From positions 5,557,299 through 5,621,298 of the forward strand of contig NZ_CP051167.1 in assembly GCF_012295525.1 (NCBI RefSeq): a DNA stretch of 64,000 bases, in the 5' to 3' direction. Below the pieces are notes generated by a model. The model was not told where the DNA came from. It ran no database searches and worked only from the letters and a program-made list of their open reading frames with translations. The DNA is from Oxynema aestuarii AP17. Lineage in GTDB: Bacteria; Cyanobacteriota; Cyanobacteriia; Cyanobacteriales; Laspinemataceae. Position numbers and translations under genes: made by a program. Shown here in pieces: positions 24,043 through 45,590 of the stretch (positions are counted from its first letter, which is position 1; each line of letters begins with the position of its first letter).

Positions 24043-24260
24043 GATATCAATGTGCTCCTTTTGGATTCGAGAATAGTCGATCTAAATCGGGCGATCGCGG
24101 GGCGAAACCCGAACCGGGTAAGGTTGGACGCGCAGTCCTCCTCGGTTGCTCGCACTCGACTCCGTTCGCGACGGTCGGATCTGCGATTCCCTCGAGTGAC
24201 GTTCTCCCGACGCTGACCTATGCGCTTCGCGCAGGCTTCGCCAACGGTACAGCGCGGGCT

Positions 24261-25502
24261 TCACTGGATCGCTCCAGCGACTACCTGCTTCGTTCGGTCT
24301 TGTCTAGGCAATGCCCCCGACAGAACCCGTCCACAGGCGATTTCATCAGCCGTGAGACCCACGACTGAGAGGCCACGATTGCGAATAACTTGAGCGCTGG
24401 CAACATCTCTGGGCTTGATGGAACCGCATTCACCGCAATGGTGAATGCGGTCTTTTAGTTCCTTGCGGACTTGAGCCCCACACTCAGGGCATTCCTGGCT
24501 GGTGCCTCTAGGGTTGACCTTGCTGTAGTAGACACCACGCTTCCAGCACACCCACGGCAGCACAATGTTGACGAACTGACCCAAGCCAGCATCAACCATC
24601 TGTTTGCCAAGGAAGCCCTTAGCGAGTGTCCTGAAGTCCAAGTCTTCAACAAATATTATCCCGGCTCGATCGCAGAGATGATGAGCCAGCTTAAACTGCC
24701 AGTCCAGACGGTAATTCGCAATATTTTCGTGAACTCGACCGATCCGCTCGATTAACTTGAGCCAGTTTTTCGACCCCTTCTGCTTCCCTTTTAGCCTACG
24801 TTGCAGCGATTTCAGCTTGCGGTGCAGCTTATTGAAGAAACGAGGACGAGAAACCTGCTCGCCATCAGAGGTGGATAGAAAATACTCCAGACCCACATCC
24901 AGCCCCAGGGCATGACCTTCTGGCGGGATGTCGGGTACATCAACGTTGGCTTTTAGAATCAGCATGACGTACCAGCCTGAATGCTTCCGCACGACCCGAA
25001 CAGCTTTCAGATCGAAGCCCTCTGGGATGGGGCGATGCAAGTTGATAGGCACCTGCCCGATCTTTGGCAGCTTAATGCTGTTGCCATCAATCGCCTCACC
25101 TTTGATCTGCGGAAACAGAAATGACCGCATCCGACCAAATTTCTTGAACCGAGGAAACCCAGTTCGCTTTTGGTGGAAGGCGACGAAAGCAGCATCAACC
25201 CTCCCCATGACATCCTGAAGCACCTGAGAATGAACCGCTTTGAGTTCAGGATTGGTTTTCTTAGCTTCAGTTAACGCCTTCTTCTGACGGTAGTAATTGT
25301 ACTCCTTCTGGAGAGTGCAAGCATTGACCGAGCACTTCCGACTGTCGATCCAGTCCTTGCGCTCCCCGACCGCATAGTTGTAAACCTGGCGGCAAGTCTC
25401 CAGCCAATTCAGCATCTGGAGTTCTTGTTCGAGATCTGGGTAAATCCGGTATGAGTAGGTCAATACAAGCATGTAACTCTTATAACTTAGGAGAAACAGC
25501 AA
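24261..25502 (-). CDS. tnpB: IS200/IS605-family TnpB (OrfB) RNA-guided endonuclease-like transposon protein
   Basis: 413 aa. OrfB N-terminal region (YSYRIYPDLEQE...CRQVYNYAV), RuvC-like core, and a C-terminal zinc finger CPECGAQV...HHCGECG. No adjacent tnpA (Y1 transposase). Confidence 0.9.
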   Translation of the reverse strand: MLFLLSYKSYMLVLTYSYRIYPDLEQELQMLNWLETCRQVYNYAVGERKDWIDSRKCSVNACTLQKEYNYYRQKKALTEAKKTNPELKAVHSQVLQDVMGRVDAAFVAFHQKRTGFPRFKKFGRMRSFLFPQIKGEAIDGNSIKLPKIGQVPINLHRPIPEGFDLKAVRVVRKHSGWYVMLILKANVDVPDIPPEGHALGLDVGLEYFLSTSDGEQVSRPRFFNKLHRKLKSLQRRLKGKQKGSKNWLKLIERIGRVHENIANYRLDWQFKLAHHLCDRAGIIFVEDLDFRTLAKGFLGKQMVDAGLGQFVNIVLPWVCWKRGVYYSKVNPRGTSQECPECGAQVRKELKDRIHHCGECGSIKPRDVASAQVIRNRGLSVVGLTADEIACGRVLSGALPRQDRTKQVVAGAIQ

Positions 25503-25801
25503 TGCTCCCTAGAAAATCGCGAAAGAGTATGGCGACTCCATTCCACTCCATCGCCTCGGCTTTCATCCCGACACTCACGCTTCGCGTAGAGTGCGGGGCT
25601 TCCCGCCGATTCAGCTAAAAAACAGGAATAAATCTACAAACCTGCCGATCTTGGAGGCCATGACTGCCCCCGAGCCAACCCGAAACGGGACAAAAGCAAG
25701 ATCGATGTTGTCCCGGTGTCTTCGAGGTGATGCCTCGCCATGACAACCCTTTCAAAACTACAACCAATTCCCCCGAATTTCCAGAAAAGCGGCGATCGCC
25801 C

Positions 25802-26720: not shown

Positions 26721-26764
26721 GAAAATCTTAAAATCTACAATCTACAATCTACAATCTACAATCC
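26721..26764. repeat. heptanucleotide tandem repeat (aatctac x5)
   Basis: gaaaatcttaaaatctacaatctacaatctacaatctacaatcc, immediately 3' of the HEAT-repeat gene. Confidence 0.5.
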
Positions 26765-29098
26765 CCACTCTGCTACGATTTTTTCGGCAAACTGGCGAAC
26801 CGCAGGATCGGTATCTTGGGTCTGGCGATCGCGCAAAATTTGTACGGTTTCGGGACGATCGCCATAGCGATCGCACAAACATTCTAAAGCCGTTTGTCGG
26901 GGATTGAGTTTGCCATCTTCCGGCGATTTAAACGGGTCTTGGGTGGCGCGATCGCGCAGAAATTCAAATAATAAACCCTCGTCACTCATGCCTCGGGCGA
27001 GATATTGAACGGCGGCATGACGGACGAACGAATCTTCATCTTTAATGGCCCGTTCTTTGAGAAGGGCGATCGTTTCTGGTAGTTCGATCCAGCCGCGAAA
27101 GAGTTCTTTAATCGCCGCCAATCGAACGGCCCAATTTTCATCAGATCCGGCACAGTTTTTGAGTATTGAAAATGTTTCCGAATCGTCAAACCATCCGGCA
27201 GCCAGTTCTTGCAACGCCACGATCCGCACGTCCCAATCGGGATCGGACTCGACCCGCTCTTGCAGTAAGGTCAGCGTTTCCGGGCGACCGTAATATCCGG
27301 TGGCGAGTTCGCTGAGGGCAGCCATTTTAACATCGGAGCTGGAGTCTTCGACGGCCAAGGTTTCGAGGGTTTCGATCGTATCGGTTTCGCCTTTCCAACC
27401 TTTGACGAGTTCGTGAAGGGCGGCTTCGCGCACTTGCCAAGCGCGATCGCCCGTGGTGGTACGTTGCAGGAGACTGAGGGTTTCCGGGCGATCGAACCAT
27501 CCGGTGACCAGTTGCTCGACGGCGGCGATGCGCACCTGCCAATCGGCATCAGTTTGGGTGCGATCGCCCAGCCAGGGGGCGGTGTCGGGGCGATCGCACC
27601 CTTGGGCGGCCACGGCTTGCACGGCGCTGACGCGCACTTGCCAGGTTTCCTTGGGCGTCGCGCACTGTTTGAGCCAGTCGAGGCGATCGCCGGGGGTGAT
27701 TCTCATGCTGGCGATCGCCTCGATCGCCCGTCGGCGCACGTGCCAATCGGCATCGGTAGTGGCGATTTCGCGCAGTAATTTTTCGACCCTTGCTTCGATT
27801 TCCGGTCGATTGAGCCATTCGGCGGCCAGTTCGCGGACGATGCTGCGACGCACGCGCCAATCGGCATCTTCCCGGGCGAGGGTTTGCAGGACCGAGAAGG
27901 TTTCGGGGCGATCGGGGTAGGTGTGGGCGAGTTCGCGGGCGGCTGTTTCGCGCACGTCCGGTTCGCGATCGCCCGTAGCGAGGGTTTGCAGGAGGGAGAA
28001 GGTTTCGAGATCGTCTCGATAATGTTGGGCCAGGGCTTCGACGGCGGCTTCGCGTACCAACCAGTCGCGATCGTCTTTAATCAGGGTTTTGAGTAAGGGT
28101 TCGGTGGCGGAATTTTTGGGGGCGTAGGTGGCCAGTCCGCGCAGGGCACTGGCCCGGGTAATGTCGGAACCGGGGGTTTTGGCGAGGGTTTCGAGCCACT
28201 GGAGGGTCTCGGGATCGCGGTTCCAGCCTCGGGCGATTTCGTCTACGGCGCTCATGCGGATCGAGTCGTAGGCGTCGGACTGGGCGAGGGTTTTCAGCCA
28301 GTGGAGGGTCTCGGGATCTCCGGGAGAGAGGTTGGCGATCGCGCTGACGGCTTTGAGGGCGATCGGGAAGCGACGGTCGGCGACGCCGCGATCGCGTAGG
28401 AACGCCGAAGGGGTATCGCACAACTGCCGGAGGCGATCGCGCACGGTGGCGGTGAGGGGAGCCATTTCGGCGCGATCGCCGCGACTGGCGAGGCAGGTGG
28501 CGGCGAGGAACAGGTTGAGGAAATTGGCGTTTTCGCCGTCGAGGTGGAGTAAATAGTCGATCAGTTCGCCAGCCAGTTCGCGATCGGCGATCGCCACAAT
28601 TTCTACGAGAATTTCGTGCCAGGTTTCGTCAAACCAGCGTTCGCCAAAAATCCGAGTTTTGAGGGTTTCGCGGGTTAAACTGTCCTCTACATTCGGACTT
28701 TCGAGGCGCTGGCAGACCGATTGGGCGTAGGCGAGCGCTTTCACTTTTTGCAAGTAAGCACGAGCGAGATCGGACCAACTCCACAGATCCGGCAACGGCG
28801 GTAAGTGCAGGTCCGCCCAAGATCTGGGAAAAACTTCGAGTTCCAGGGTCGGGCTTTGGGGGGTGAAGGCCGAGAGTAAGGTGGTTTTGACCGACGGGCG
28901 ATCGAGAAATTTTTGGAATGGTTCGCGATATTGGGCGATCGCCTCCGCCTCCAGCCCCGCATCCTCTAACTCCAACTGCACTAAGTGCAGAAAAATCGTG
29001 AAAGCCGCTTTGAGATTTTCCGGCTCCTCTGCCCCCACTATCGGCGGGTCGAGGAGAGGTTGAAACGTCAAACTAACAGCGTTGGCTACTCCCTGCAT
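26756..29098 (-). CDS. HEAT-repeat (PBS-lyase/E-Z type) domain protein, 780 aa
   Basis: At least 12 tandem ~31-aa units of the form D(W/P)xVRxxA(V/I)xxL(A/V)xxW (e.g. DWQVRIAAVEQLVTGW, AWQVREAALHELVKGW, DWDVRIVALQELAAGW). N-terminal non-repeat region. Confidence 0.85.
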   Translation of the reverse strand: MQGVANAVSLTFQPLLDPPIVGAEEPENLKAAFTIFLHLVQLELEDAGLEAEAIAQYREPFQKFLDRPSVKTTLLSAFTPQSPTLELEVFPRSWADLHLPPLPDLWSWSDLARAYLQKVKALAYAQSVCQRLESPNVEDSLTRETLKTRIFGERWFDETWHEILVEIVAIADRELAGELIDYLLHLDGENANFLNLFLAATCLASRGDRAEMAPLTATVRDRLRQLCDTPSAFLRDRGVADRRFPIALKAVSAIANLSPGDPETLHWLKTLAQSDAYDSIRMSAVDEIARGWNRDPETLQWLETLAKTPGSDITRASALRGLATYAPKNSATEPLLKTLIKDDRDWLVREAAVEALAQHYRDDLETFSLLQTLATGDREPDVRETAARELAHTYPDRPETFSVLQTLAREDADWRVRRSIVRELAAEWLNRPEIEARVEKLLREIATTDADWHVRRRAIEAIASMRITPGDRLDWLKQCATPKETWQVRVSAVQAVAAQGCDRPDTAPWLGDRTQTDADWQVRIAAVEQLVTGWFDRPETLSLLQRTTTGDRAWQVREAALHELVKGWKGETDTIETLETLAVEDSSSDVKMAALSELATGYYGRPETLTLLQERVESDPDWDVRIVALQELAAGWFDDSETFSILKNCAGSDENWAVRLAAIKELFRGWIELPETIALLKERAIKDEDSFVRHAAVQYLARGMSDEGLLFEFLRDRATQDPFKSPEDGKLNPRQTALECLCDRYGDRPETVQILRDRQTQDTDPAVRQFAEKIVAEWGL

Positions 29099-29584
29099 CG
29101 GTGCTTACTCCGCGATCGTCCTCTGCTCATCCGAGTATAGCCCTTCGTCCCGTTCGTGTCGCTATTCGAGCCAGCCCGAACCCCGGACTCCGGACATCCT
29201 ACTCACCTCCCCCACCCGCCAGAAATTCAGTCACCGGGCGATCGCGATTCCACCGCTTCTTACCTTGCCGACAATAACCGCTTTAAAATATAGCTATCCT
29301 CTCTAAGTTGTTTCATCCAGCGATCGTCAGGCATCCCTGTAGGGAAACAGAATTGCCGTATCCCTAAAAATCATGAATTTTACAACAACATTCGTGATAG
29401 CCATCTAAGAGACTTTTTATCAAGAAAATCTCAAAGAATCTAGGGGTTTGCTTACCAAACTCCTACAGGATCCTCAAACATGACTCTTAATGTTTATTTT
29501 ATAAACAATCTCCAAAAGAAATACAGCATTTTCCTCTGCTCTGCAAGACATTTAGATCCCCCTAAATCCCCCTTGAAAAGGGCG

Positions 29585-29660
29585 ACTTTCCTCGTTCCCC
29601 CCTTACTAAGGGGGGTTAGGGGGGATAAAAACTATCCCTCATCAGACGCCCGCGTGCTGT
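29585..29660. repeat. left ~75-bp inverted repeat bracketing the Uma2 gene pair
   Basis: The reverse complement of 29585-29660 matches 30904-30980 with only a few mismatches (acagcac[g/t]cggg[c/t]gtctgatgagggatagtttttatcccccctaacccccttag...). Contains an internal G/C hairpin ccccccttactaagggggg. Confidence 0.7.
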
Positions 29661-29685
29661 AACTTAAAATCACCTCAAAACAAAA

Positions 29686-30264
29686 ATGAATACAATTACA
29701 ATTGATTTAAATTCAATTACCCCAATTGATGACGAACAATTTTATCAACTTTGTCGCGCCAATCCCGAACTCAAATTTGAACGCAACGCCAATGGAGAAA
29801 TCCTCATCATGTCGCCGACCGGAGGAGAAACAGGGAATTGCAATATTGAGATTGCCGCCGATTTTGTCTTTTGGAACCGCCAAACCAAATTAGGGAAATT
29901 ATTCGATTCTTCCACCTGTTTTAAATTGCCAAATGGCGCCAACCGTTCTCCCGATTTGGCTTGGGTGAAGGTGGAGAGATGGGAGGGACTGACGGCGACA
30001 GAAAAAGAGAAATTTCCACCCCTTGCACCGGATTTTGTCTTGGAGTTGAAGTCACCCACAGACCGCCTCAGCACTTTACAGGCTAAACTCGAAGAATATA
30101 TCGAAAATGGGGTGAAATTAGCTTGGTTAATTGACCGAGAAACAGATCGCGTCGAGGTCTATCGAACGGGACGGGATAAGCAGGTTTTCGAGAAACCAGC
30201 CACTTTATCTGGAGAAGAAATTTTACCCGGTTTTGTTTTATCTTTTGAGGAAATTTGGAAATAG
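29686..30264 (+). CDS. Uma2-family (DUF820) putative restriction-endonuclease-like protein, copy 1
   Basis: 192 aa. ELKFERNANGEILIMSP, PDLAWVKVERW, PDFVLELKSPTD, KLEEYIENGVKLAWLIDRETDRVEVYR. These match the Uma2 PD-(D/E)XK-like signature blocks. Confidence 0.85.
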   Translation: MNTITIDLNSITPIDDEQFYQLCRANPELKFERNANGEILIMSPTGGETGNCNIEIAADFVFWNRQTKLGKLFDSSTCFKLPNGANRSPDLAWVKVERWEGLTATEKEKFPPLAPDFVLELKSPTDRLSTLQAKLEEYIENGVKLAWLIDRETDRVEVYRTGRDKQVFEKPATLSGEEILPGFVLSFEEIWK

Positions 30265-30313
30265 ACTTTTGATTTAAAAGCGAATTTAACTTTTATTTTA
30301 ATAAATCCAAAAA

Positions 30314-30892
30314 ATGAATATAATTACTCTTGACTTAAAACCGCTTTGTGCGATCGATGACGAACAATTTTATCAACTTTGTCGCGCCAATCCCGAACTC
30401 AAATTTGAACGCAACGCCAATGGAGAAATCCTCATCATGTCGCCGACGGGAGGAGAAACAGGAAACTGCAATGCAGAATTATTAATCGAATTTGGCATTT
30501 GGAACCGCCAAACCAAATTAGGGAAATTATTCGATTCTTCCACCTGTTTTAAATTGCCAAATGGCGCCAACCGTTCTCCCGATTTGGCTTGGGTGAAGGT
30601 GGAGAGATGGGACGGACTGACGGCGACAGAAAAAGAGAAATTTCCACCCCTTGCACCGGATTTTGTCTTGGAGTTGAAGTCACCCACAGACCACCTCAGC
30701 ACTTTGCAGGCTAAACTCGAAGAATATATCGAAAATGGGGTGAAATTAGCTTGGTTAATTGACCGAGAAACAAATCGCGTCGAGGTCTATCGACCGGGAC
30801 GGGATAAGCAAGTTTTTGAGAAACCAGCCACTTTATCTGGAGAAGAAATTTTACCCGGTTTTGTTTTATCTTTTGAGGAAATTTGGAAATAG
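30314..30892 (+). CDS. Uma2-family (DUF820) putative endonuclease, copy 2 (tandem paralog)
   Basis: 192 aa, ~90% identical to copy 1 at DNA and protein level. Differences are concentrated in residues ~3-15 and ~52-66 (NIEIAADFVFW vs NAELLIEFGIW). Confidence 0.85.
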   Translation: MNIITLDLKPLCAIDDEQFYQLCRANPELKFERNANGEILIMSPTGGETGNCNAELLIEFGIWNRQTKLGKLFDSSTCFKLPNGANRSPDLAWVKVERWDGLTATEKEKFPPLAPDFVLELKSPTDHLSTLQAKLEEYIENGVKLAWLIDRETNRVEVYRPGRDKQVFEKPATLSGEEILPGFVLSFEEIWK

Positions 30893-30903
30893 TTATTAAA
30901 TAT

Positions 30904-30980
30904 ACAGCACTCGGGTGTCTGATGAGGGATAGTTTTTATCCCCCCTAACCCCCTTAGAAAGGGGGGGACGAGGGAGAAAA
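30904..30980. repeat. right inverted repeat partner of 29585-29660
   Basis: See the left repeat. Near-identical in reverse orientation. Confidence 0.7.
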
Positions 30981-31202
30981 ATACTGTAGTTATCCTATGC
31001 GAGTCGTGACCTTGATTTCCAACTATTTTAGGATGGCTCTATAGACCTCTAAAAAAGTTGCTGCAAGCTGCTATTTTTCAAGAGATTTGGGGTGATTTTG
31101 TTTCATGATGCAAGAGCGATAAGCAAAAAACCCGGTGTCTTCAGATTGTAATTGCAAGTAACTAAACTACCGTAAATAGTCGTCATCACAATTTCAAAAG
31201 AA

Positions 31203-33548
31203 TCATTCCTCTAACAAACGTTGTAACTCCTGTTCCGTAAATGGGTTTTTATCGTTACGGAGGGAATAAATCCATTCTTTTCGCCAAAACTGTGCTGAGT
31301 TGTTATTAATTGAATCGAGAAATGCTTGGAAATCTTCTATTGCCCCTTCAATGTTTCCCGTCAGCGCTCTTGCCAAACCGCGACTATCTTGATAGACTGC
31401 ATTTTCTGCTTCTAAACTGACTGCTGTTTCACAAGCAAACAGCACTGCAGCCGCGCGACCTTGGAGCGCACCAAAACGACACAGGGTATTCCAAGAACTA
31501 GCCTTTTTTACATTCGGATCGAGATTTTGAGCTTCTTTAAACAAGGCAATTGCTTCATCTATTTCTCCCTTTTTTGCTGATGATTCGCCTTTCTTGAATT
31601 TTTCAATGGCAGCCAAGTAGCGAACAGCCATTTCGGGCTGTTTATATTGTTCATCACTGTTGTCGGAAATTAGATCGATATCCGGATTGAGGTTCTGTGC
31701 TTCTTTAAATTTGGCAATCGCTTTATCGAGTTGCCCCTCTTTCACTAATTTAGTTCCTTCTTCATGTTTTTTATCAGCCGCGAATTGCTTGGCAACAGTT
31801 GCTGCGTCTGTCTCTACTTCTGCAGTGCTCAGATTGAGATCGAGATTAGGGTCGAGAGTTTGCGCTTCTTCAAATCTAGCAATGGCTTCATCGAGGTTTC
31901 CCTCCCTCGCTAACGTGGTTGCTTCTCCACGTTTTTTCACAGCAGTAAATTGATTAGCAACTATTTCTGCATCTGTCTCTACTTCTTTAGTATCAGGATT
32001 GAGATCGAGATTAGGGTCGAGAGTTTGTGCTTCTTTCAATTTGTAAATTGCTTCATCGCGTTTTCCTTCGAGAACCAAATTTTCGGCTTGTTTGACTAAG
32101 GCGGGGACTGCTTTTCGCTGAGAATCGAAAGTTAATTTTAGATTCCACTGTTTTGCTCGCTCGAATTTGTGAATTGCTTCCTCGAACTTTCCTGTTTTAA
32201 CTAGTTGTTCGCCTTGGGCAACTAGAGAAAGTGCAGATGCTTGCAATCGTTGAGGGTTCTGGCAAGATTCTAATTGACTGAATCGATCTGGTCGGCTAAT
32301 ATTATATTCCTCAAGCCAGGTGCAACCACGGTTTATCAGGTCGGGTAAATTCAGATTCCATAATTTCACGGTACTATCTTCACTGCCAGATACCAAGGTT
32401 TTTCCATCCGGGCTAAATGCTAATGCATAAATTGGACCGTTATGAGATAAAAAAGTATGAATTAAAGTACTGTCGGGCTGCCACAATTTCACCGTATTAT
32501 CGGAACTGCCTGATGCGATAGTTTTGCCATCGGGACTGAAGGCGATTGCATTCACTTCACTAGCATGGCTTTCGAGGGTAGCGATTAAACTGCCATCAAG
32601 ATTCCACAGTTTGACCATTTTATCCTTACTGCCTGATGCAATGGTTTTGCCATCGGGACTGAAGGCGATTGTATTAATCTCACTAGCATGACCTTCGAGA
32701 GTAGCAATTAAACTGCCATCAAGATTCCACAGTTTGACCATTGCGTCTGCACCCCCTGATGCGACGGTCTTGGCATCAGGACTGAAGGAGATCGCATTAA
32801 TCTTGCTACTATGGCCTTCGAGAGGAAATGAGGTAATAGACTGGCCATCCTTATGCCACACATGTACTTTTTTGTCGGAAGTAGCTGATAACACTTTTCG
32901 ATCGTCGTCACTAAAAGCTACTGCCAAAATTGAACTCGTATGTTCTGGAAAATTTCTAATTAAGCTACCATCAAGGTTCCAGAGTGCGATCGTTTTATCC
33001 GAACTGCCTGATAGGAGAGTTTTTCCATCCGAACTGAATGTTAGTGTGTTAATGTAGTTTTTATGACCTTGTAGAGTCGTGATTAGAGTACCGTCACGCA
33101 GCGATAATTTCACTGTGTTATCCCTACCGCCCGATGCAATGATTTCTCCATTTGGGCTGAATGCCACTGACCAAACAGAATCTCCATGAGTTGTAAGGTT
33201 AGGAATTGAAGGGGTATTTTTCCGCCAAAACTTCACCGTATTGTTATCACTACCAGAAATAATAGTCTTTCCATCGGGACTAAATCCTACGGTTCTAACT
33301 TTATGAGTATGACCTTCGAGGGTTTTAATTAATTTGCCATCAAGTTTCCACAATTTAACTGTTTTATCATCACTACCGGAGACTAAAGTTTTACCATCTG
33401 GGCTGAATGCGACTTCTCTAATCGCCAATGTATGAGCTTTGATAGTGTTGATTGAAGTGCCGTCGCGCCGCCACAAATTTATGGTGCCATCCCAACTTCC
33501 CGATGCTAATAATTCGCCATTTGGGCTGAATGCGACTATCAACTCCAT
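31203..33548 (-). CDS. WD40-repeat (14-15 blades) plus C-terminal TPR-like repeat region; C-terminal portion of a frameshifted NTPase-WD40-TPR gene
   Basis: Repeated GH...(A/V)FSPDG(K/E)(T/I)(I/L)(A/V)SGS.D.T(V/I)KLW units. The C-terminus has four EAIxKFEEAQTLDPNLDLN TPR-like units. The N-terminus overlaps the upstream ORF in another frame. Confidence 0.8.
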   Translation of the reverse strand: MELIVAFSPNGELLASGSWDGTINLWRRDGTSINTIKAHTLAIREVAFSPDGKTLVSGSDDKTVKLWKLDGKLIKTLEGHTHKVRTVGFSPDGKTIISGSDNNTVKFWRKNTPSIPNLTTHGDSVWSVAFSPNGEIIASGGRDNTVKLSLRDGTLITTLQGHKNYINTLTFSSDGKTLLSGSSDKTIALWNLDGSLIRNFPEHTSSILAVAFSDDDRKVLSATSDKKVHVWHKDGQSITSFPLEGHSSKINAISFSPDAKTVASGGADAMVKLWNLDGSLIATLEGHASEINTIAFSPDGKTIASGSKDKMVKLWNLDGSLIATLESHASEVNAIAFSPDGKTIASGSSDNTVKLWQPDSTLIHTFLSHNGPIYALAFSPDGKTLVSGSEDSTVKLWNLNLPDLINRGCTWLEEYNISRPDRFSQLESCQNPQRLQASALSLVAQGEQLVKTGKFEEAIHKFERAKQWNLKLTFDSQRKAVPALVKQAENLVLEGKRDEAIYKLKEAQTLDPNLDLNPDTKEVETDAEIVANQFTAVKKRGEATTLAREGNLDEAIARFEEAQTLDPNLDLNLSTAEVETDAATVAKQFAADKKHEEGTKLVKEGQLDKAIAKFKEAQNLNPDIDLISDNSDEQYKQPEMAVRYLAAIEKFKKGESSAKKGEIDEAIALFKEAQNLDPNVKKASSWNTLCRFGALQGRAAAVLFACETAVSLEAENAVYQDSRGLARALTGNIEGAIEDFQAFLDSINNNSAQFWRKEWIYSLRNDKNPFTEQELQRLLEE

Positions 33549-35541
33549 CTATATGACCCTTGAGGGTTGTAATTAAGGTGCCGTCAGGTCGCCACAATTT
33601 CACGGTTTTGTCCGAACTACCTGATGCAATGATTGCCCCATCTGGACTGAATGCTACTGCATAAACTACATCCTTATGACCTTCGAGGGTTGTAATTAAG
33701 GTGCCGTCAGGTCGCCACAATTTCACGGTTTTGTCCGAACTACCTGATGCAATGATTGCCCCATCTGGACTGAATGCTACTGCATAAACTACATCCTTAT
33801 GACCTTCGAGGGTTGTAATTAAGGTGCCGTCAGGTCGCCACAATTTCACTTTCTTGTCCCAACTGCCAGAAGCCAAAATTTCCCCATTCGGGCTGAATGC
33901 TACTGCCCTAACTTGATCTGTGTGACCTTCGAGGGTGTTAATTAAGGTGCCATTGGTCTGCCACAACTTCACTGTTTTATCCCGACTGCCTGATGCAATG
34001 ATTTTTCCATCTGGGCTGAATGCTGTTGCCCAAACCCAATGGGTATGACCTTCAAGACGGTTGAACTCCTCAATGTCATAAACTACTTGTTGCAATGCCA
34101 TGATGGGATGCATTTGCGTTGCGACAGTATGACCTTGGGCTTCTAAGTCTTGCAATTTTTGGGCAGTTTTTAAAGCTTCGACTAAGGCTTCAATTTTCTG
34201 GTTGGAATTAAAAAATTCTCGGCTTTTGAGACTCATGGCTAGGATTTCCGCATTGATTTCCCGGCGTTTGGCGTCTCTCGCGAGAAAAATTGCTGTCGCA
34301 GTCGCGGCAGAGAGAGCGAAAATAAAGGTTAAAGCTCCTGCCAAACTGCGTTGCAACAGTTTCACTCGCGCCCGTTCCGCCTGTTGTTTCCCGGCTTCGG
34401 CTTCGGCGAGGCGTCGTTCGAGGTCGTAGTGATACCGTTGCCGGATGGGTTCGACGAGGTAATCGTGGACGAGTTGGTAGCAGTCTGCGGCGGCGTCGAT
34501 CCAGTGTACGACTAAGCCGGAACCGACGAGGACGGTTAAAATCGCGTCTTGCAAGTGAGGGGCTTGAGGTCTGGTCGCCGCGTCTAACTCTAAGGCGGCT
34601 TGGAGGTCGGCATAAGTGCGGCTGGGACGGGTGCCTTTGTCGTCGGTTAAGGCGGCGAGGACTTTCCAGGCGGCTTCGATGTTGGGCGGGCCGCAGTCAG
34701 CTACTGCGGTTTCCAGCCATCGTTGTACGAGGGTGGTTTTGGGTTCGTCGCCGAGGTGGCGGTAGCGGTCGAGGTCGGTGATGTTCTCGGCTTGCAGTTG
34801 GGCGCCGACGATTTGCAGTTCGATGGGGCGGACGGCATCGACTTCGCTGGCGAGGTCGGCGACGACGGCATCGATTAACTCGGGTTGTAAGGACAAATGC
34901 GCTCGTTGGCTCAATTCGAGGATGACTTTACGGGCGCTGTCGGCGTCGAAGTTGCCGAGATAGTAACGATATTTGGGGTTTAACAGGTCGCCCCGGATGT
35001 CGGCGACTTGGGTAAAGCGCTCGAATTCTAGGAGTTCGTGTAAGTAATCTTGCCTTAAGGAAAGGATGATTTTGACGAGGGGAATGGTTTTGGCGTCGAG
35101 GCAGCGTTCGAGAAATTCGTAGAACTGGCGGCGTTGTTTCGGTTGGGGACAAGCTAAGAAAAATTCCTCAAATTGGTCGAAAATTAGCACGGTTAGCCAG
35201 TGGTTCGCCCCGTTGCGCCGTAATTGTCCTTCGATCGCCTCCAAACTGTCCCAATGGGCGTCCGGTTGCCCCATGATTTCCGCCAATGCCGCCCCTAATT
35301 CTTCTGTCCAGGTTTGGCGATCTCGTTCCCGGTCGGACTGAGGCTGGAATAGCGCACCCATTCCGTCTCGCAGTTCCTTGACCTTATGCCATAAATACGG
35401 GTCAGCCTGATCGGGACGTAAGCAAGCTACCCCATTCGGGATGGCTTTAGATGGGGCGCATCCACTGTTACCCCCACACACCGGACAGGGGTTTTGTTTA
35501 TTGAAACTCCGAAGACTTACCGGGGAGGTCATAGCCCGCAC
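33418..35541 (-). CDS. STAND/NACHT-like NTPase remnant (Walker B and winged-helix region, no P-loop) fused to 5 WD40 repeats; N-terminal portion of the same disrupted gene
   Basis: LTVLIFDQFEEF (Walker-B-like) and LVKIILSLRQDYLHELLEF (NACHT-like) motifs, but no GxxxxGK(S/T). An N-terminal Cys cluster (CPVCGGNSGC). Then WD40 units (HTHWVWATAFSPDGKIIASGSRDKTVKLW...). Confidence 0.7.
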   Translation of the reverse strand: MRAMTSPVSLRSFNKQNPCPVCGGNSGCAPSKAIPNGVACLRPDQADPYLWHKVKELRDGMGALFQPQSDRERDRQTWTEELGAALAEIMGQPDAHWDSLEAIEGQLRRNGANHWLTVLIFDQFEEFFLACPQPKQRRQFYEFLERCLDAKTIPLVKIILSLRQDYLHELLEFERFTQVADIRGDLLNPKYRYYLGNFDADSARKVILELSQRAHLSLQPELIDAVVADLASEVDAVRPIELQIVGAQLQAENITDLDRYRHLGDEPKTTLVQRWLETAVADCGPPNIEAAWKVLAALTDDKGTRPSRTYADLQAALELDAATRPQAPHLQDAILTVLVGSGLVVHWIDAAADCYQLVHDYLVEPIRQRYHYDLERRLAEAEAGKQQAERARVKLLQRSLAGALTFIFALSAATATAIFLARDAKRREINAEILAMSLKSREFFNSNQKIEALVEALKTAQKLQDLEAQGHTVATQMHPIMALQQVVYDIEEFNRLEGHTHWVWATAFSPDGKIIASGSRDKTVKLWQTNGTLINTLEGHTDQVRAVAFSPNGEILASGSWDKKVKLWRPDGTLITTLEGHKDVVYAVAFSPDGAIIASGSSDKTVKLWRPDGTLITTLEGHKDVVYAVAFSPDGAIIASGSSDKTVKLWRPDGTLITTLKGHIDGVDSRIQPKWRIISIGKLGWHHKFVAARRHFNQHYQSSYIGD
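33565..33850. repeat. perfect 126-bp tandem duplication (x2.3) encoding one 42-aa WD40 blade
   Basis: gttgtaattaaggtgccgtcaggtcgccacaatttcacggttttgtccgaactacctgatgcaatgattgccccatctggactgaatgctactgcataaactacatccttatgaccttcgagg occurs twice identically, with a third partial copy. Confidence 0.8.
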
Positions 35542-35813
35542 CCTCCGAAGTCGAGTTCAAGTTGCTGGGTTTTCGGTGCTGTTTTGGTTTGGGCGCAACC
35601 CTTTAGATCTTCAAATTCAAGCCGCCCCACCTTCCGCCACCAGCGATCGCACCGCAAGCAGTGAAGCGAAGCCGGATAATTGCCCTGGGGGTGGAGTTCC
35701 AGGCGAGTCTCGCGGCATCCGCAAGATGCACACCCGTGAATATGGGGAGGTAATTTTTTTAATCCCCGGTATCCCGGTCGGGATTCCAAAGAAGGTGATA
35801 TTATGTTTTTCAT
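35529..35813 (-). CDS. small zinc-ribbon-like ORF, possibly an out-of-frame N-terminal piece of the NTPase-WD40 gene
   Basis: HGCASCGC...HCLRCDRWW (CxxC...CxxC). Ends 13 nt inside the next ORF in a different frame. Confidence 0.3.
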   Translation of the reverse strand: MKNIISPSLESRPGYRGLKKLPPHIHGCASCGCRETRLELHPQGNYPASLHCLRCDRWWRKVGRLEFEDLKGCAQTKTAPKTQQLELDFGGCGL

Positions 35814-36217
35814 GAGGGTCCTTCGTGGTGGGAGCGACCCTCGCGCTTCAAAAAACCTTAGAAAAAATCTCTTTATTATCCTAGTGGTGCTAAGATAAAT
35901 CCAGTATTAAATTGATTGATTTTTTCTTTGGGGGTCTCGTGTGGTTGTCGCCAAACAACCAGGAAGCGCGGGGCCTTCTTCCGTTTGTACAGATTGAATT
36001 GTACCCCAGAAATCGGGGACTTGGTAATACCTTTTTGTAAATTGTTTCCCGGTTGGGGAAATTTTCACCCTTCATCGCACCAGGGTGAATTTCCCCTTTA
36101 ACCTTGCCACACCTTATCGGTAGTCTGATTGAGAATTAGTTGCTGTTAGCGAAATATTTGGGGTTTGCACTAATAAAAATCTCAGATTATGCCGTGCGAA
36201 CCCGGTAAACCAGGGAA

Positions 36218-36574
36218 TCATTGGAGATTTTCTTGAGCTTTTTCTAAGGCAATAGTTAACCCATCGGCTAACCTGACGACCTCGGACTGCACCCCATTAC
36301 CTGAAAAATCCCCATCACGGAATAGGGCCAACAGGTACCGATCGCGCTCAGTTTCGGAGAATTTCGCCGAGAGGGGGTCCCGGTTCGCGGCTGTATTCGC
36401 ATAAATGCAGCAAGAAGGAGCGAGTCTGACGATCGCCCCTGGGGATTCTCTATGGAAAATTTTAGTCCAGAGGAGAGCGAGTTGGATCGCCGCGATCGCC
36501 CTGTCAGGACTGGCGGCGACTCGTTGGAGTTGACCCGTCGGATGGTGGTGATCGCGTGGTGCAGACCAGACCAT
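36218..36574 (-). CDS. hypothetical protein
   Basis: 118-aa ORF overlapping a second ORF in another frame. The C-terminal part is plausibly protein-like. Weak call. Confidence 0.2.
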   Translation of the reverse strand: MVWSAPRDHHHPTGQLQRVAASPDRAIAAIQLALLWTKIFHRESPGAIVRLAPSCCIYANTAANRDPLSAKFSETERDRYLLALFRDGDFSGNGVQSEVVRLADGLTIALEKAQENLQ

Positions 36575-36699
36575 CGAAGGGGTTTAGAAGGGTGGGACAT
36601 CCTCGCCGGGTGTAAGTTGTCAGAATCATTCGGGGGGTCCTTTTTAAATAATCAGTATAAATAAAAGGGCGATCGCAGTTGAGAGGCGATCGCCCCTGG

Positions 36700-36927
36700 T
36701 TAGTCGTTAGCAGTTTTGATAAGGTCCCCCGGTTCGCACTGCAACAGTTCGCAGAGTCGGGTCAGTTTTTCGTGATCTAGTCCTGGCGGGACAATATCCG
36801 AATTTTTATATCTACTTGCCGTGGTGCGGCTAACCTCCAAGATTTCCGCGAGTTCCCCTACGCTTACCCTCTTAAGCGCCATCAACGCTCGCAGGTTCCA
36901 GTAAATCTCCATAACGGTTGCCATCAT
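36700..36927 (-). CDS. XRE-family (Cro/CI-type) helix-turn-helix transcriptional regulator
   Basis: LKRVSVGELAEILEVSRTTASRYKNSDIVP...LTRLCELLQCEPGDLI. HTH_XRE pattern, including the C-terminal Lxx LxCxxxDL segment. Confidence 0.7.
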   Translation of the reverse strand: MMATVMEIYWNLRALMALKRVSVGELAEILEVSRTTASRYKNSDIVPPGLDHEKLTRLCELLQCEPGDLIKTAND

Positions 36928-37353
36928 ATATCATTCCTCTCTGCTATTGTTCCACGGGGCGGGTTATTTGATGTGTTCAGCGAGTCAGCCCGCTCCTTTC
37001 ATTGTAACCCCTTTGGGTCCTGCTATAATCCACTATATAGGACAAATAACCTTTATAAATTGACAAATATCCCATGCTACGCTACATTAAAATATTGGAA
37101 CCGACAAGACCCCCAGAGACTCCCGGAGTAACCCGGTAAACCAAATCTTGTCCCTGCGATCGACTCGGAATCCTGCAAAAAAAACGAGACCCCATAGCCC
37201 GAAAGCTACAGGGTCCCACCTTACGGGAGATTTCTCCCCCATGAACCGAACATTGACAACCGAATAATCATTTTCATGACCGTATCGGTCTAGTCCTAGG
37301 CGCGCCAACGCTTTGGACCGTATTTCAGTTCAAGTAGTTTTTCAACTAACACT

Positions 37354-37761
37354 ATGACTACTCTATCAATTTCAAGCCCCAAGTGCATGGGATTTTACTC
37401 CCAGGGACTCCAAGATAAGCTCTATCCCTTTGTTGAGAACGGCCAGAGGCTAACACTTGACGATGCCATCCGCCTGATCCACCTATCCAGCGAAGGTGCT
37501 TGGTGGGCGATGCAAAAAGGAATGGACCAGGCGATCGGCCAAATCATGAGTGACCTCGAAGCCGACTCTATGGATTGCGTTCCCTTTGACGGCTTTGATT
37601 CCGACGCTGATGAGTTCCGGGCCCTCAAACTCGAACTCACCGAATGGTTAGCCCTAGCCCGGTGGAGTTCGGAACTGGCTGAACTGCGGCTCAATGATTA
37701 CACCCGAGCCAAAGTCAGCGAGATGGCTGCACAGTCGCCTCCAATCTGGGAGGTACTCTGA
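37354..37761 (+). CDS. hypothetical protein (first of three translationally coupled small ORFs)
   Basis: 135 aa. Its stop overlaps the next start (TGATG). No known motifs. Confidence 0.4.
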   Translation: MTTLSISSPKCMGFYSQGLQDKLYPFVENGQRLTLDDAIRLIHLSSEGAWWAMQKGMDQAIGQIMSDLEADSMDCVPFDGFDSDADEFRALKLELTEWLALARWSSELAELRLNDYTRAKVSEMAAQSPPIWEVL

Positions 37762-38054
37762 TGCAACTACCCAACAAGCTGGCCCCCTTTATTCAGCTAG
37801 ATAACCTCTGCTACGAAGACAAGCTCGACCTCCTAATCGTTGCCACCCAAGCTCTAAAGCAGTGCCACTCTAATAGCCATTACGAAATCGACCTGCTTAA
37901 CGCCCTCGAAAATTCAGACTGTACGCAGGACGCCTTTGAGGGCATCACCGAAAGTCACGAATTTCTCGAAGTGACCCTCACCGAGGTGGAATGGATCCAG
38001 TTCTCCCAGGCTGTTTTAACAGCACTCAAGTTGGTGTTTGAGGTCGCGAAATGA
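37761..38054 (+). CDS. hypothetical protein
   Basis: 97 aa. Start overlaps the previous stop; its stop overlaps the next start (ATGA). Confidence 0.4.
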   Translation: MQLPNKLAPFIQLDNLCYEDKLDLLIVATQALKQCHSNSHYEIDLLNALENSDCTQDAFEGITESHEFLEVTLTEVEWIQFSQAVLTALKLVFEVAK

Positions 38055-38233
38055 ACAACGTTGAGGAGCGAACCATTCATTGGGAGTCGGTCCTGATGGC
38101 TACCCCACTCCCCGGCGAATTAGTGACCTATGTCGCCACCATCCTCGTTCAAGATGAAAACTGGGGTTTTGATGCCCGGACCCGTCAGCAGCAGGCTATC
38201 ATGGCCCGCGCTGCTCAGTCGGTGAGCCTTTAG
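38051..38233 (+). CDS. hypothetical small protein
   Basis: 60 aa. Coupled to the upstream ORF. Confidence 0.35.
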   Translation: MNNVEERTIHWESVLMATPLPGELVTYVATILVQDENWGFDARTRQQQAIMARAAQSVSL

Positions 38234-38579
38234 GAGGTACGCCGATGAGCATTTTCCTTGACATTGGCCTGACCCTCTCCCTCGGTTACCTCTGGTTTCT
38301 GGCATCAGTTGCCCGTGCTCCGGACTGCCGAACCGATAGGTGCGATCGCCTGGATCCGAGTGAAAAAAGACCCCTAATTTATCGATCATAACTTGAGGGA
38401 CATCTTTCACTCCCTAAGTATCTCATCAGCCCTCACAAGACCTGCCTAGGTACTTAGGCCAAAAACTACCTCAAATAACCTCAGATAGCGGGATAGAGAT
38501 AATTCTGTCCCGCTATTCTATTGGTTCCTTCTTAGACCTATCAAGACCTATACAGACCCATAAGGAGTTATACAGTCCT

Positions 38580-39590
38580 ATGCAACCTTACGCGCTTGAT
38601 TTAGGCAACGGATACACGAAATTCTCACGCGGCTCAACCCCTCAGATGATGCCCTCCTACATCTGTGAAGCCCTAGATCCATCAGAGTTGTGTGACGACA
38701 TTGGCTTCGGTGCAATTATCAAATACACCGTCGGAGAGCGCACTGACCTAGCCGGACGAATTTGGGCAGTAGGGGAAGCGGCTAAAACCTCATTCCCAGG
38801 CGCTTTCAGTCGAGTCGTTGATAGCGAGAATTCAACCGGGAAAGTTGATTTTGCACTTCATTTTGCACTCGCTGGACTCCCCCCAGTGAGTCACGGCCAA
38901 TACTTCCAAATTCCGATGATGTATGCCAGTCTGCCTGACCCGGCACTACTGGGAAGCGCCTTCAAACGAGCCATCATCGGCACTCACCGATACATTCATA
39001 ACGGAGTGGAGGCGAGCGCCACAATCGACGATGTGACCGTACTCCATGAAGGTCAGGGAGCTTTCGTTTATGCCTTATCCCAGGGGGTTTTTCCCAGTGG
39101 AACAGCTAACGCGATTATCGACTGTGGGAATGGCACGACAATCGCTCAAGCCTTCAGTCCCAACGGGCATTTAATCCCTAAAAGTCGCACAGTTTCTCAG
39201 GTTGGGGTGTTTCATTTGCTCAAGTCAATCGCCTCGGATATCCGGTTCAAAAAAACCCTCGGGAAAGAAGGGAATATTCACCTGATTCAGCAGGCAATCG
39301 AGGATGGCTCACTCAGCTACGGCTCCCGGAATATTGACATCAGCAACATCTACCGTGAACACCGCAACCGCTGGGCATCACAAGCCCTCAAGAAAGCCCT
39401 CGAAAAGTTTAGCACGATGAAGGATGAAATCGACACCATTTTATTGATTGGCGGTGGCGCAAACATCGTCAAAATCTTAGCCGAAAAGAAAGACTCGATT
39501 GAGTTATGCCCGGAGCCTCAGTTAGCCAATGTCTTAGGTTTAGCAAAGTTGGCAGACAAGCGAATCCGTAACCTTCGGAGTGTGGCGTAA
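38580..39590 (+). CDS. actin-like ATPase of the ParM/StbA plasmid-segregation family
   Basis: Phosphate-1 motif LDLGNGYTK at the N-terminus, phosphate-2 IDCGNGTTIAQ, adenosine motif LLIGGGANIV. 336 aa. Confidence 0.75.
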   Translation: MQPYALDLGNGYTKFSRGSTPQMMPSYICEALDPSELCDDIGFGAIIKYTVGERTDLAGRIWAVGEAAKTSFPGAFSRVVDSENSTGKVDFALHFALAGLPPVSHGQYFQIPMMYASLPDPALLGSAFKRAIIGTHRYIHNGVEASATIDDVTVLHEGQGAFVYALSQGVFPSGTANAIIDCGNGTTIAQAFSPNGHLIPKSRTVSQVGVFHLLKSIASDIRFKKTLGKEGNIHLIQQAIEDGSLSYGSRNIDISNIYREHRNRWASQALKKALEKFSTMKDEIDTILLIGGGANIVKILAEKKDSIELCPEPQLANVLGLAKLADKRIRNLRSVA

Positions 39591-39805
39591 TGGGCAAAAA
39601 ATTAACCCTCCGGACTGAGCTTATCCCCTTGGTTGAATCCTTCGCCAGTGCTAAAGGGGACGACTCCCTTGGAGCGGCGATGAATCGGCTGATTTATCTG
39701 GGATTGAAAGCTGAAGGATTTATCCCTCATGCCACCCATACAAAAGGTGGCAATACTTCCCCCAACAATGACGACTTAGAAATACTCGGAGTCATTGACT
39801 TATGA
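39590..39805 (+). CDS. small putative ribbon-helix-helix DNA-binding protein (ParR-like adaptor candidate)
   Basis: 71 aa. KKLTLRTELIPLVESFASAKGDDSLGAAMNRLIYLGL fits a beta-strand, helix, turn, helix pattern. Overlaps the parM-like stop (TAATG). Position matches the parMR order. Confidence 0.35.
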   Translation: MGKKLTLRTELIPLVESFASAKGDDSLGAAMNRLIYLGLKAEGFIPHATHTKGGNTSPNNDDLEILGVIDL

Positions 39806-40089
39806 ACTACAAAATTACCACCCTTATTACCTGCATAGTCGGTTCAATGCTCACCATGATCCTCGTCCTCGGTGCGCTTGAACCCCAGGTCGATTCAGCC
39901 CGGATGATGACCATTGCCATCTTATGCGGCATAGGGTCAGCTATTGCAAACATAGTGTTTCAACGGCGGCGCTGTCCCCCAGCTTCCGACTCCCTCCAGA
40001 GCCTTCTGCGCGGAGGGCGACTTTCACCGGCGCAGCAATTCACCATCCTGGATGCGATCGCCATCTTGGACGAGCGAGAAAAGGCGTAA
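39802..40089 (+). CDS. small integral membrane protein
   Basis: Two hydrophobic helices (ITTLITCIVGSMLTMILVLGAL; MTIAILCGIGSAIANIVF). Overlapping start and stop. Confidence 0.4.
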   Translation: MNYKITTLITCIVGSMLTMILVLGALEPQVDSARMMTIAILCGIGSAIANIVFQRRRCPPASDSLQSLLRGGRLSPAQQFTILDAIAILDEREKA

Positions 40090-40197
40090 CAACCGGGAAA
40101 CCAACCACTGTAACCATTGAGATTCCGTGGGTTGGGTTTCAGATGTAACCAACAGATTTAACCAACCCCACCCCCTGAAAAATAGGAGATTAAGCCC

Positions 40198-44129: not shown

Positions 44130-44224
44130 GGCGATCGCGGCATGGTGTTTTCGTACCCTTGAAGTCTCCTTGAGGCGATCGCACCCGGGTCATCCAAACC
44201 CAGCCACCGGCTTACTGAGTACCT

Positions 44225-44700: not shown

Positions 44701-44708
44701 CAAATGCC

Positions 44709-45569: not shown

Positions 45570-45590
45570 GTTTTTTCCTCTATTTTGAAT

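What the first reader, a model, noticed from the sequence alone, without database searches (positions are those of the whole stretch)
29585..30980. Two near-identical Uma2 (DUF820) endonuclease genes enclosed by ~75-bp inverted repeats
The paralogs are ~90% identical, including silent sites. Divergence is confined to two short segments (residues ~3-15 and ~52-66), a pattern of localised diversification or gene conversion. The pair is bracketed by nearly identical inverted repeats with internal G/C hairpins, forming a ~1.4-kb cassette that looks like a MITE-like vehicle. Uma2-family proteins are abundant in cyanobacteria but their function is unknown, so a mobilisable Uma2 cassette would be new.
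Basis: seen in the sequence. Interest (0 to 1): 0.6.

Follow-up and report, generated by a model that had tools for sequence, protein, structure and literature searches.

The report
Tandem Uma2 genes between two repeat copies
Two neighbouring copies of a cyanobacterial nuclease gene of unknown function sit between two oppositely oriented copies of a small non-coding repeat; the evidence favours a long-resident gene pair kept alike by gene conversion over a new kind of mobile gene cassette.

Summary
The window is Oxynema aestuarii AP17. It holds two 192-aa Uma2 (PF05685) genes, 93.4% identical in DNA, with 31 of 38 differences in nt 8-42 and 135-184, bracketed by inverted repeats.

The "mobilisable Uma2 cassette" reading is not supported.
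- Each arm is a self-contained foldback element bounded by TACAGCA...TGCTGTA. It measures 140 and 86 nt here and about 210 nt in a related strain.
- A third copy lies about 6 kb away in two related genomes, beside no Uma2 gene.
- The G/C-hairpin core of the arm occurs in intergenic DNA on plasmids of many cyanobacterial genera.
- The locus sits at the same chromosomal site in all five Oxynema-like sequences recovered.
- None of 65 related Uma2 loci has flanking inverted repeats.

The patchy divergence reflects gene conversion. A third divergent tract survives in one strain and has been overwritten in others. Strain CENA135 carries a single A/B chimeric gene.

Tandem Uma2 pairs were already described (Feder & Bujnicki 2005; Makarova 2009). 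One thing appears new. In about six other cyanobacterial array lineages, neighbours are 84-96% identical yet differ at the same positions on one face of helix 47-67. That face may determine specificity.

Overall: ordinary, with one modest lead.

The parts
29522..29661 (+). Left arm: one copy of a MITE-like foldback repeat (TACAGCA...TGCTGTA). It has a unique outer part, about 1.5 generic G/C-hairpin units and a unique inner part.
   Evidence: Boundaries come from the alignment of the left, right and third copies. It folds on itself with its termini paired: -53.3 kcal/mol, z = -4.4. Its core matches intergenic DNA on plasmids of other cyanobacteria.
29686..30264 (+). Uma2 gene A (QIZ73002.1), 192 aa. 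The putative PD-(D/E)XK residues are D90, E120, K122 and K134. Its helix type is IEIAADFVF, close to the family consensus.
   Evidence: Pfam PF05685, E = 7.5e-46. The exact protein is recorded for O. aestuarii AP17. The AF2 model has pLDDT 92. The best structural match is 1WDJ, TM 0.76.
29693..29727 (+). Patch 1 in gene A (nt 8-42, residues 3-13). The matching tract in gene B is 30321-30355.
   Evidence: A and B differ at 14 of 35 nt. A matches the CENA135 gene at 34 of 35.
29820..29869 (+). Patch 2 in gene A (nt 135-184, residues 45-62; amino-acid changes at 54-62). It lies inside predicted helix 47-67. The matching tract in gene B is 30448-30497.
   Evidence: A and B differ at 17 of 50 nt. 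The same positions vary within tandem arrays of other cyanobacteria.
30265..30313 (+). A/T-rich 49-nt spacer between A and B. It resembles neither outer flank.
   Evidence: It is identical in AP17, L089 and L090. Its similarity to the leader of gene A is not above shuffled controls.
30314..30892 (+). Uma2 gene B (QIZ73003.1), 192 aa. Its helix type is AELLIEFGI, the minority 'G61' type.
   Evidence: Pfam PF05685, E = 2.4e-46. It is identical to P0002 of O. aestuarii AP17.
30903..30988 (-). Right arm: a second copy of the same foldback repeat, inverted relative to the left arm, with an internal deletion of the outer unique part and the generic units.
   Evidence: The full-length version is seen in L090 10590-10806 and in L091.

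Best explanation
This is a resident, vertically inherited tandem pair of Uma2-family (COG4636, PD-(D/E)XK-fold) genes in Oxynema. It happens to lie between two inverted copies of a small non-coding, self-folding (MITE-like) intergenic repeat.

Shown:
- The pair and both repeat copies occupy the same chromosomal site in every Oxynema-like genome recovered.
- The repeat has sharp TACAGCA...TGCTGTA ends.
- A further copy of the repeat lies beside unrelated genes.
- The repeat is built around a G/C-hairpin core that is widespread in cyanobacterial intergenic DNA.

Inferred:
- The pair is old.
- Its near-identity, including silent sites, comes from repeated gene conversion restricted to the coding sequence (concerted evolution).
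- The short divergent tracts are what conversion has not yet erased, or what selection does not allow it to erase.
- The single gene of strain CENA135 arose by A x B recombination that deleted one unit.
- The inverted arrangement of the two repeat copies is incidental. It is not a transposition vehicle.

The biochemical role of Uma2 remains untested. The best guess is a nuclease in which one face of helix 47-67 sets target or partner specificity.
For: Same site, five genomes. The neighbours are the same in all: an NNH2-HEAT protein upstream and an nSTAND/WD40 protein downstream. Four sequences carry the pair or its remains. CENA135 carries one gene between the same arms.

Discrete repeat. All copies start and end at the same bases. 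Each arm folds on itself with its ends paired.

Third copy. L090 17039-17218 and L001 about 16000-16270 lie between the WD40 gene and a 446-aa gene, with no Uma2 nearby.

Generic core. It occurs on plasmids from 16 cyanobacterial genera across two searches (13 in the larger one), nearly always in unannotated DNA. The number of core units varies between strains on both sides.

No inverted repeats around 65 related Uma2 loci. The null maximum score was 32, the best related locus scored 32, and the window scored 119.

Gene conversion.
- nt 43-134 is identical in all genes.
- L090 gene B and CENA135 share a B-type tract at nt 276-313 that is A-type in gene B of AP17, L089 and L091.
- CENA135 is A-like up to nt 153 and B-like from nt 160 to about 330.
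- A/B homology stops at the edges of the coding sequence.

Tandem Uma2 genes are common: 18 of 79 related loci here. They were reported earlier (PMC551604; PMC2701414).
Against: The genome-wide copy number of the repeat in Oxynema could not be measured. The Oxynema genomes are evidently not in the searchable DNA collections: searches missed even the known copies. Only about 100 kb of Oxynema DNA was examined, so a second Uma2-carrying unit elsewhere cannot be excluded.

The whole unit is bounded by TA on both sides, as a Tc1/IS630-type composite would be.

The order of events is not settled. The three lineages are about equidistant. A duplication after the CENA135 split, followed by import of three short tracts from other paralogs, also fits.
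Confidence: 0.7

Rival explanations
1. Composite, MITE-flanked mobilisable unit. A transposase acting in trans on the outer ends of the two inverted repeat copies moves the Uma2 genes as cargo. MITE pairs that flank class 1 integrons in Acinetobacter are thought to work this way.
For: Two copies of one repeat in inverted orientation bracket the genes. TA lies on both outer sides. MITE-flanked cargo has precedent (PMC10969869). Uma2 genes have been called selfish (PMC551604).
Against: The unit is at the same site in five genomes, with no second site. There is no filled/empty polymorphism. The right arm has lost its outer unique part and its generic repeat units in AP17, L089 and CENA135. A third copy flanks an unrelated gene, so adjacency to Uma2 is not special. 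None of 65 related Uma2 loci has flanking inverted repeats. No transposase with matching ends was seen in the window.
Confidence: 0.07
2. Recent tandem duplication followed by local replacement. The ancestor had one gene like that of CENA135. It duplicated after the split, and three short tracts were then imported from more distant Uma2 paralogs by short-tract ectopic gene conversion.
For: Outside the patches A and B differ at 7 of 494 nt, while each differs from CENA135 at 24-25. By the upstream block CENA135 is marginally the most distant lineage. The A-type helix IEIAADFVF is 8 of 9 identical to the commonest family types and is identical to L038 copy 2, so donors plausibly exist.
Against: It needs three separate imports where the main explanation needs one deletion. 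A fresh duplication would copy flanking DNA, yet the spacer is unrelated to either flank. Other cyanobacterial arrays show the same pattern of near-identical neighbours that differ in the same helix, often with helix types shared across genera. That is easier to explain by old types kept apart.
Confidence: 0.2
3. The inverted repeat is functional for the Uma2 genes. It could pair the 5' and 3' ends of the transcript, drive antisense transcription from the right arm, allow inversion of the segment, or serve as a substrate of the nuclease itself.
For: The arms are retained in all five genomes. In AP17 and L089 a 29-nt core is identical in both arms, although the left arm differs there in L090 and CENA135, which points to exchange between arms.
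Against: There are no compensatory changes, and the CENA135 left arm has lost complementarity over about 16 nt with no change in the right arm. The right arm tolerates a large deletion. Orientation is the same in all genomes, so there is no inversion. No Rfam family matches. No promoter-like site was found on the gene strand in either arm. Other Uma2 loci lack such repeats.
Confidence: 0.04

Closest known systems
Uma2 / DUF820 / COG4636 family (TT1808, PDB 1WDJ), including its known tandem 'cassettes of paralogous genes'
   Same: Both genes give full-length Pfam matches. The PD...ExK...K residues are present. The predicted fold matches 1WDJ, 6OKH, 3OT2 and 9Y1L. The head-to-tail arrangement of paralogs matches what Feder & Bujnicki 2005 and Makarova et al. 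2009 reported for cyanobacteria.
   Different: Nothing essential. This pair has the 'PD-EXK-K' variant (K122 plus K134), whereas the commoner form in the family is PD-EXX-K. The conversion mosaic and the recurrent variable helix face have not been described in the papers I could read.
Bacterial MITEs and related small foldback repeats (for example Correia elements and cyanobacterial Nezha)
   Same: Short (86-210 nt) and non-coding. Sharp ends with short terminal inverted repeats. Strong self-folding. Intergenic location. More than one copy. Copy-to-copy variation in internal repeat units.
   Different: The terminal inverted repeat is only 7 nt. No unambiguous target-site duplication: TA is palindromic. 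No partner transposase was identified. No filled/empty polymorphism was seen. Only three copies were observed.
MITE-flanked composite units (MITE pairs around class 1 integrons in Acinetobacter)
   Same: Two copies of one small repeat bracket protein-coding cargo.
   Different: In those cases identical MITEs surround different cargos in different strains and species, which is the evidence for movement. Here a single cargo sits at a single site, and one arm is partly deleted.
Concerted evolution of tandem paralogs by gene conversion (as in duplicated tuf genes and rRNA operons)
   Same: Neighbours are far more alike than orthologs in related genomes, silent sites included. The tract boundaries are sharp and the tract patterns differ between strains.
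   Different: Specific short tracts resist homogenisation. One of them coincides with a segment that also differs between neighbours in unrelated arrays.

Membership tests
Uma2 (PF05685 / COG4636) | Full-length match to the family profile above the curated cut-off | tested here: met
   156.2 and 157.8 bits against a cut-off of 27, covering profile positions 2-171 of 172.
Uma2 (PF05685 / COG4636) | PD-(D/E)XK-type residues: the invariant Asp and Glu, plus Lys in the strand and/or the adjacent helix (Feder & Bujnicki 2005) | tested here: met
   P89-D90, E120 and K134 are invariant in the 108-sequence alignment. K122 is also present in A and B. The motif definitions are in PMC551604.
Uma2 (PF05685 / COG4636) | Restriction-endonuclease-like fold resembling TT1808 | tested here: met
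   AF2 pLDDT 92.1. Foldseek to 1WDJ gives E = 7e-22, TM 0.76. The profile search against PDB sequences gives 1WDJ at E = 2e-39.
Uma2 (PF05685 / COG4636) | Nuclease activity | not testable with these tools
   No family member has been characterised biochemically in the papers found.
MITE | Small non-coding element with defined ends and terminal inverted repeats | tested here: met
   All copies are bounded by TACAGCA...TGCT(G/A)TA, measure 86-210 nt and have no long ORF. The ends pair in the predicted fold. The terminal repeat is only 7 nt, which is weak.
MITE | Several dispersed copies in one genome | tested here: inconclusive
   Three copies within 8 kb in L090 and in CENA135, and two in 64 kb of AP17. 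The genome-wide count was not obtainable.
MITE | Target-site duplication | tested here: inconclusive
   All copies have TA at both ends. TA is palindromic, so it may belong to the terminal repeat. No longer direct repeat is present.
MITE | Evidence of movement (filled versus empty sites) or a partner transposase with the same ends | tested here: not met
   Both arms are present in every genome. The site of the third copy has no counterpart in AP17 or L089. No element with matching ends is in the window.
Composite (repeat-flanked) mobile cassette carrying Uma2 | The same bracketed unit at different genomic sites or with different neighbours | tested here: not met
   Five sequences all have the same neighbours. 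The arm pattern was absent from the collections scanned, but those collections lack Oxynema.
Composite (repeat-flanked) mobile cassette carrying Uma2 | Recurrent association of the cargo family with flanking inverted repeats | tested here: not met
   None of the 65 related loci exceeded the largest score of the mismatched-flank null.
Concerted evolution by gene conversion | Discordant relationships along the gene, with tract patterns that differ between strains | tested here: met
   The site-pattern table of eight genes. In other arrays the neighbour is the closest relative outside the helix (0.90-0.99 against at most 0.85). Yet 20 of 27 genes have a closer helix in a distant locus.

The most novel reading that the evidence does not exclude
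Tandem Uma2 arrays across filamentous cyanobacteria are homogenised by gene conversion everywhere except one face of the first core helix (residues 52, 54, 57, 58, 61, 62, plus 71-72). There, a small set of old helix types is kept apart by selection, for example SEINADFVI, FEIATDFGI and IEIAADFVF. On this reading the helix face is the target- or partner-specificity determinant of an uncharacterised nuclease family. An array would then be a set of enzymes, or heterodimers, with different specificities. That would give the first experimental handle on what Uma2 proteins recognise.
Probability: 0.25. Interest if true: 0.5.

Novelty: new member of a known kind. Interest (0 to 1): 0.22.

Why it matters
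As a claimed new mobile cassette it does not hold up, so this locus should not be used as evidence that Uma2 genes travel in MITE-like vehicles.

What is useful is narrower.
- The locus is a clean, multi-strain example of gene conversion between tandem Uma2 paralogs. It includes a recombinant single-copy derivative.
- It points to one helix face that stays different between otherwise near-identical neighbours in several unrelated cyanobacteria.

Uma2 is among the most expanded gene families of unknown function in cyanobacteria, so a candidate specificity surface gives a concrete place to start mutagenesis or binding studies.

Tried and rejected
1. DNA pattern scans for the unique inner part of the arm. 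Genome contigs gave six chance-type hits in unrelated phyla. Viral contigs and metagenome contigs gave none. These scans missed even the known copies in AP17, CENA135 and L090, so those genomes are not in the collections. The negatives therefore say only that the unique ends are absent from other taxa.

2. Exact look-ups of A and B returned nothing, so AP17 is not in that index. P0002 also failed.

3. I searched the 60-aa ORF that overlaps the left arm as a proxy for other arm copies. Only the L089 ORF itself came back. This is weak evidence, because other copies need not carry a called ORF.

4. Rfam found no family in 29000-31500. The promoter and terminator scan found nothing on the gene strand in the arms. 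There are no tRNA genes in the window.

5. I tested whether the leader of gene B is a paralogous 'empty site' for the left repeat. Its similarity to the leader of gene A was no better than shuffled sequence, so I rejected this.

6. I looked for the HEAT or LmeA neighbours next to Uma2 genes in 79 metagenome loci, hoping for an outgroup empty site. There were no hits.

7. The strain tree was meant to decide whether CENA135 lost a copy. The upstream block makes the three lineages nearly equidistant and the downstream block groups L090 with CENA135. The tree cannot decide.

8. I could not measure distances between the variable residues and the active site, because model coordinates are not exposed. 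Only helix periodicity was used.

Full report
**What is there**

The region holds two head-to-tail ORFs, A (29686-30264) and B (30314-30892). Each encodes 192 aa, and a 49-nt A/T-rich spacer separates them. Both are full-length Uma2 / PF05685 proteins, with E = 7.5e-46 and 2.4e-46. They differ at 38 of 579 nt and 18 of 192 residues. Thirty-one of the nucleotide differences fall in nt 8-42 and nt 135-184. That clustering cannot be chance: binomial P = 6e-20, and none of 20,000 permutations matched the densest 50-nt window.

An inverted repeat brackets the pair. A 29-nt core is identical in both arms, with none expected by chance.

**Source and relatives**

Proteins A and B are exactly QIZ73002.1 and QIZ73003.1 of Oxynema aestuarii AP17. 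The same locus was recovered from four other sequences:
- a 6.31-Mb JGI genome (L089);
- a 46-kb metagenome contig (L090);
- a 4.7-kb contig (L091);
- Oxynema sp. CENA135 (L001).

All have the same neighbours: an NNH2-HEAT protein upstream and an nSTAND/WD40 protein downstream. L089 and L090 carry the pair. L091 carries B and the end of A. CENA135 carries a single gene between the same two arms.

**The arms are copies of a discrete foldback repeat**

Aligning left and right arms across strains shows the repeat is longer than 75 bp and has sharp ends. In L090 both arms are about 210 nt and contain three parts:
- an outer unique part, TACAGCATTTTCCTCTGCT.TGCAAGACATTTAGATC;
- about three generic G/C-hairpin units of roughly 39 nt;
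- an inner unique part ending in CATCAGAC.CCCGAGTGCTGTA.

In AP17 the left arm is 29522-29661. The right arm is 30903-30988 and has lost the outer unique part and the generic repeat units, keeping only its terminus. Each arm begins with TACAGCA and ends with TGCTGTA, so each arm has its own short terminal inverted repeat. Each arm also folds on itself with its ends paired; the left arm gives -53.3 kcal/mol, z = -4.4. The number of internal units differs between strains on both sides.

**A third copy not associated with Uma2**

BLAST of the L090 left arm against all Oxynema sequence in hand found a third copy with the same ends. It lies at L090 17039-17218 and L001 about 16000-16270. [quoted passage not shown]

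The local order is therefore repeat - Uma2A - Uma2B - repeat - WD40 gene - repeat. The repeat marks successive intergenic regions and does not specifically wrap the Uma2 genes.

**The core of the repeat is generic**

BLAST against plasmids matched the G/C-hairpin core at 77-97% identity, nearly always in unannotated intergenic DNA. The hits include Nostoc, Oscillatoria, Kovacikia, Allocoleopsis, Aulosira, Synechocystis, Pseudanabaena, Picosynechococcus, Planktothrix, Anabaena, Calothrix, Cyanobacterium and Geminocystis. The unique ends matched nothing outside Oxynema.

One caveat applies. The three collection scans also missed the known Oxynema copies, so those genomes are not in the collections. 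The genome-wide copy number in Oxynema remains unknown.

**Is Uma2 generally flanked by inverted repeats?**

No. I fetched 79 metagenome loci with 61-69% identical relatives. For the 65 with at least 250 bp on both sides, I aligned the upstream flank against the reverse complement of the downstream flank.

| Comparison | Score |
|---|---|
| Window | 119 |
| CENA135 | 91 |
| Best related locus | 32 |
| Null (mismatched flanks): mean / maximum | 18.4 / 32 |

**Insertion signature**

The whole unit, and each repeat copy, has TA at both ends. That is compatible with a TA target duplication, but TA is palindromic and may simply belong to the terminal repeat. No longer direct repeat exists.

No genome shows an empty site for either arm. 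The third copy's site has no counterpart in AP17 or L089, because synteny breaks there.

**How the two genes came to look as they do**

A site-by-site table of eight genes shows a mosaic:
- nt 43-134 is identical in all genes.
- Patch 1 (nt 8-42) and patch 2 (nt 135-184) separate A from B in every strain, with almost no variation within each type.
- A third tract (nt 276-313; IKLERW..PEKEKF against VKVERW..TEKEKF) is B-specific in L090 and also present in CENA135.
- In gene B of AP17, L089 and L091 that third tract carries the A-type sequence, which is a direct trace of A-to-B conversion.
- The CENA135 gene is A-like up to nt 153 and B-like from nt 160 to about 330. An A x B crossover that deleted one 628-bp unit would produce exactly this.

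A/B homology starts about 4 nt before the ATG and ends at the stop codon. The spacer resembles neither outer flank, which argues against a fresh duplication.

I favour an old pair homogenised by conversion. I cannot exclude a later duplication with three imported tracts, because the strain tree is unresolved.

**A pattern that goes beyond this locus**

Eighteen of the 79 related loci carry two or three head-to-tail Uma2 genes. Within the ten complete arrays, which represent about six distinct lineages, neighbours are 84-96% identical in protein. Their differences recur at residues 52, 54, 56-58, 61, 62, 66, 71 and 72. This is the same segment as patch 2.

Outside that segment the neighbour is always the closest relative (0.90-0.99 against at most 0.85 for other loci). 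Yet for 20 of 27 genes the segment is closer to a gene in a distant locus. Helix types recur across organisms:
- SEINADFVI;
- FEIATDFGI;
- FEMTADFVI;
- IEIAADFVF, which is gene A here and is identical in L038 copy 2.

The Gly61 type, as in gene B, makes up 41% of array genes and 19% of single genes.

In the AF2 model (pLDDT 92) the segment lies in helix 47-67, just after the conserved GGETG motif. By helical periodicity, the variable positions 54, 57, 58, 61 and 62 share one face. The conserved residues E55, D59, F60, W63 and N64 occupy the other.

**What is already known**

Feder & Bujnicki (2005, PMC551604) defined COG4636 as PD-(D/E)XK nucleases with a relocated lysine. They noted its explosive expansion in some cyanobacteria and called its members a new type of selfish element. 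They found no association with mobile elements and listed tandem duplications.

Makarova et al. [quoted passage not shown] Steczkiewicz et al. (2012, PMC3424549) state that the genomic context in cyanobacteria is well conserved.

The four solved structures (1WDJ, 6OKH, 3OT2, 9Y1L) are deposited only as hypothetical, uncharacterised or putative-nuclease proteins. PADLOC gives only weak hits to a candidate defence model, PDC-S03, at E about 1e-8. MITE pairs flanking cargo are a known route of mobilisation (PMC10969869).

**Verdict**

The sequence features are real. The arms belong to a dispersed repeat that is also found away from Uma2, and there is no insertion signature.

The tandem arrangement is already described. 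The gene-conversion mosaic is well documented here but ordinary in kind. The recurrent variable helix face in tandem arrays is a modest new lead for a family whose function is still unknown.

Noticed in passing
window 24196-25614 (tnpB ORF 24261-25502, - strand): A 1419-bp IS605-family, tnpB-only element (OrfB_IS605 plus the Cas12f1-like TNB domain) is inserted between the Germane and LmeA genes in AP17 and L089. It is absent at exactly that point in L090, and the gene map suggests it is absent in CENA135 too. This is a clean filled/empty polymorphism about 4 kb from the Uma2 pair.
   Followed up: partly
window ~35300-51100 (ALP/ParM-like 38580-39590; Tn3 transposase 46159-49185; resolvases 49288-49935 and 50313-51032; RHS protein 52776-55532): Synteny with L090 and CENA135 ends at about 35311, just beyond the nSTAND/WD40 gene. 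AP17 and L089 continue into an island rich in mobile-element genes. L090 and CENA135 have the third repeat copy at that breakpoint, followed by different genes.
   Followed up: partly
window 31203-35541 and the corresponding genes in L001, L089, L090, L091: The downstream nSTAND1/WD40/TPR gene varies greatly between strains. Called products are 413, 757+687, 2003 and 1085 aa, with many internal repeat matches. This suggests rapid repeat-mediated rearrangement or assembly collapse.
   Followed up: no
L001 9745-9905; L090 9170-9288 and 10650-10768: The generic G/C-hairpin units of about 39 nt inside the repeat behave like a minisatellite. Copy number differs between strains and between the two arms.
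   Followed up: partly
window genes A and B, residues 120-122 and 134: Both proteins carry Lys at the classical position (ELK) and also the relocated helix Lys (K134). This is the 'PD-EXK-K' form that Feder & Bujnicki regarded as a possible evolutionary intermediate. Most close relatives have Met at position 122.
   Followed up: no
P0003 (245 aa, JGI, 923-nt contig): One relative contains an internal duplication of the FDSSTCF...LELMSNTD segment, which is an intragenic repeat of the catalytic core. It could be an assembly artefact or unequal recombination within a tandem array.
   Followed up: no
window 26756-29098 (- strand): The upstream neighbour combines a NACHT N-terminal helical domain 2 (NNH2) with HEAT repeats but has no detectable NTPase domain. 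Together with the nSTAND/WD40 gene downstream, the neighbourhood looks like STAND-type signalling or defence genes.
   Followed up: no
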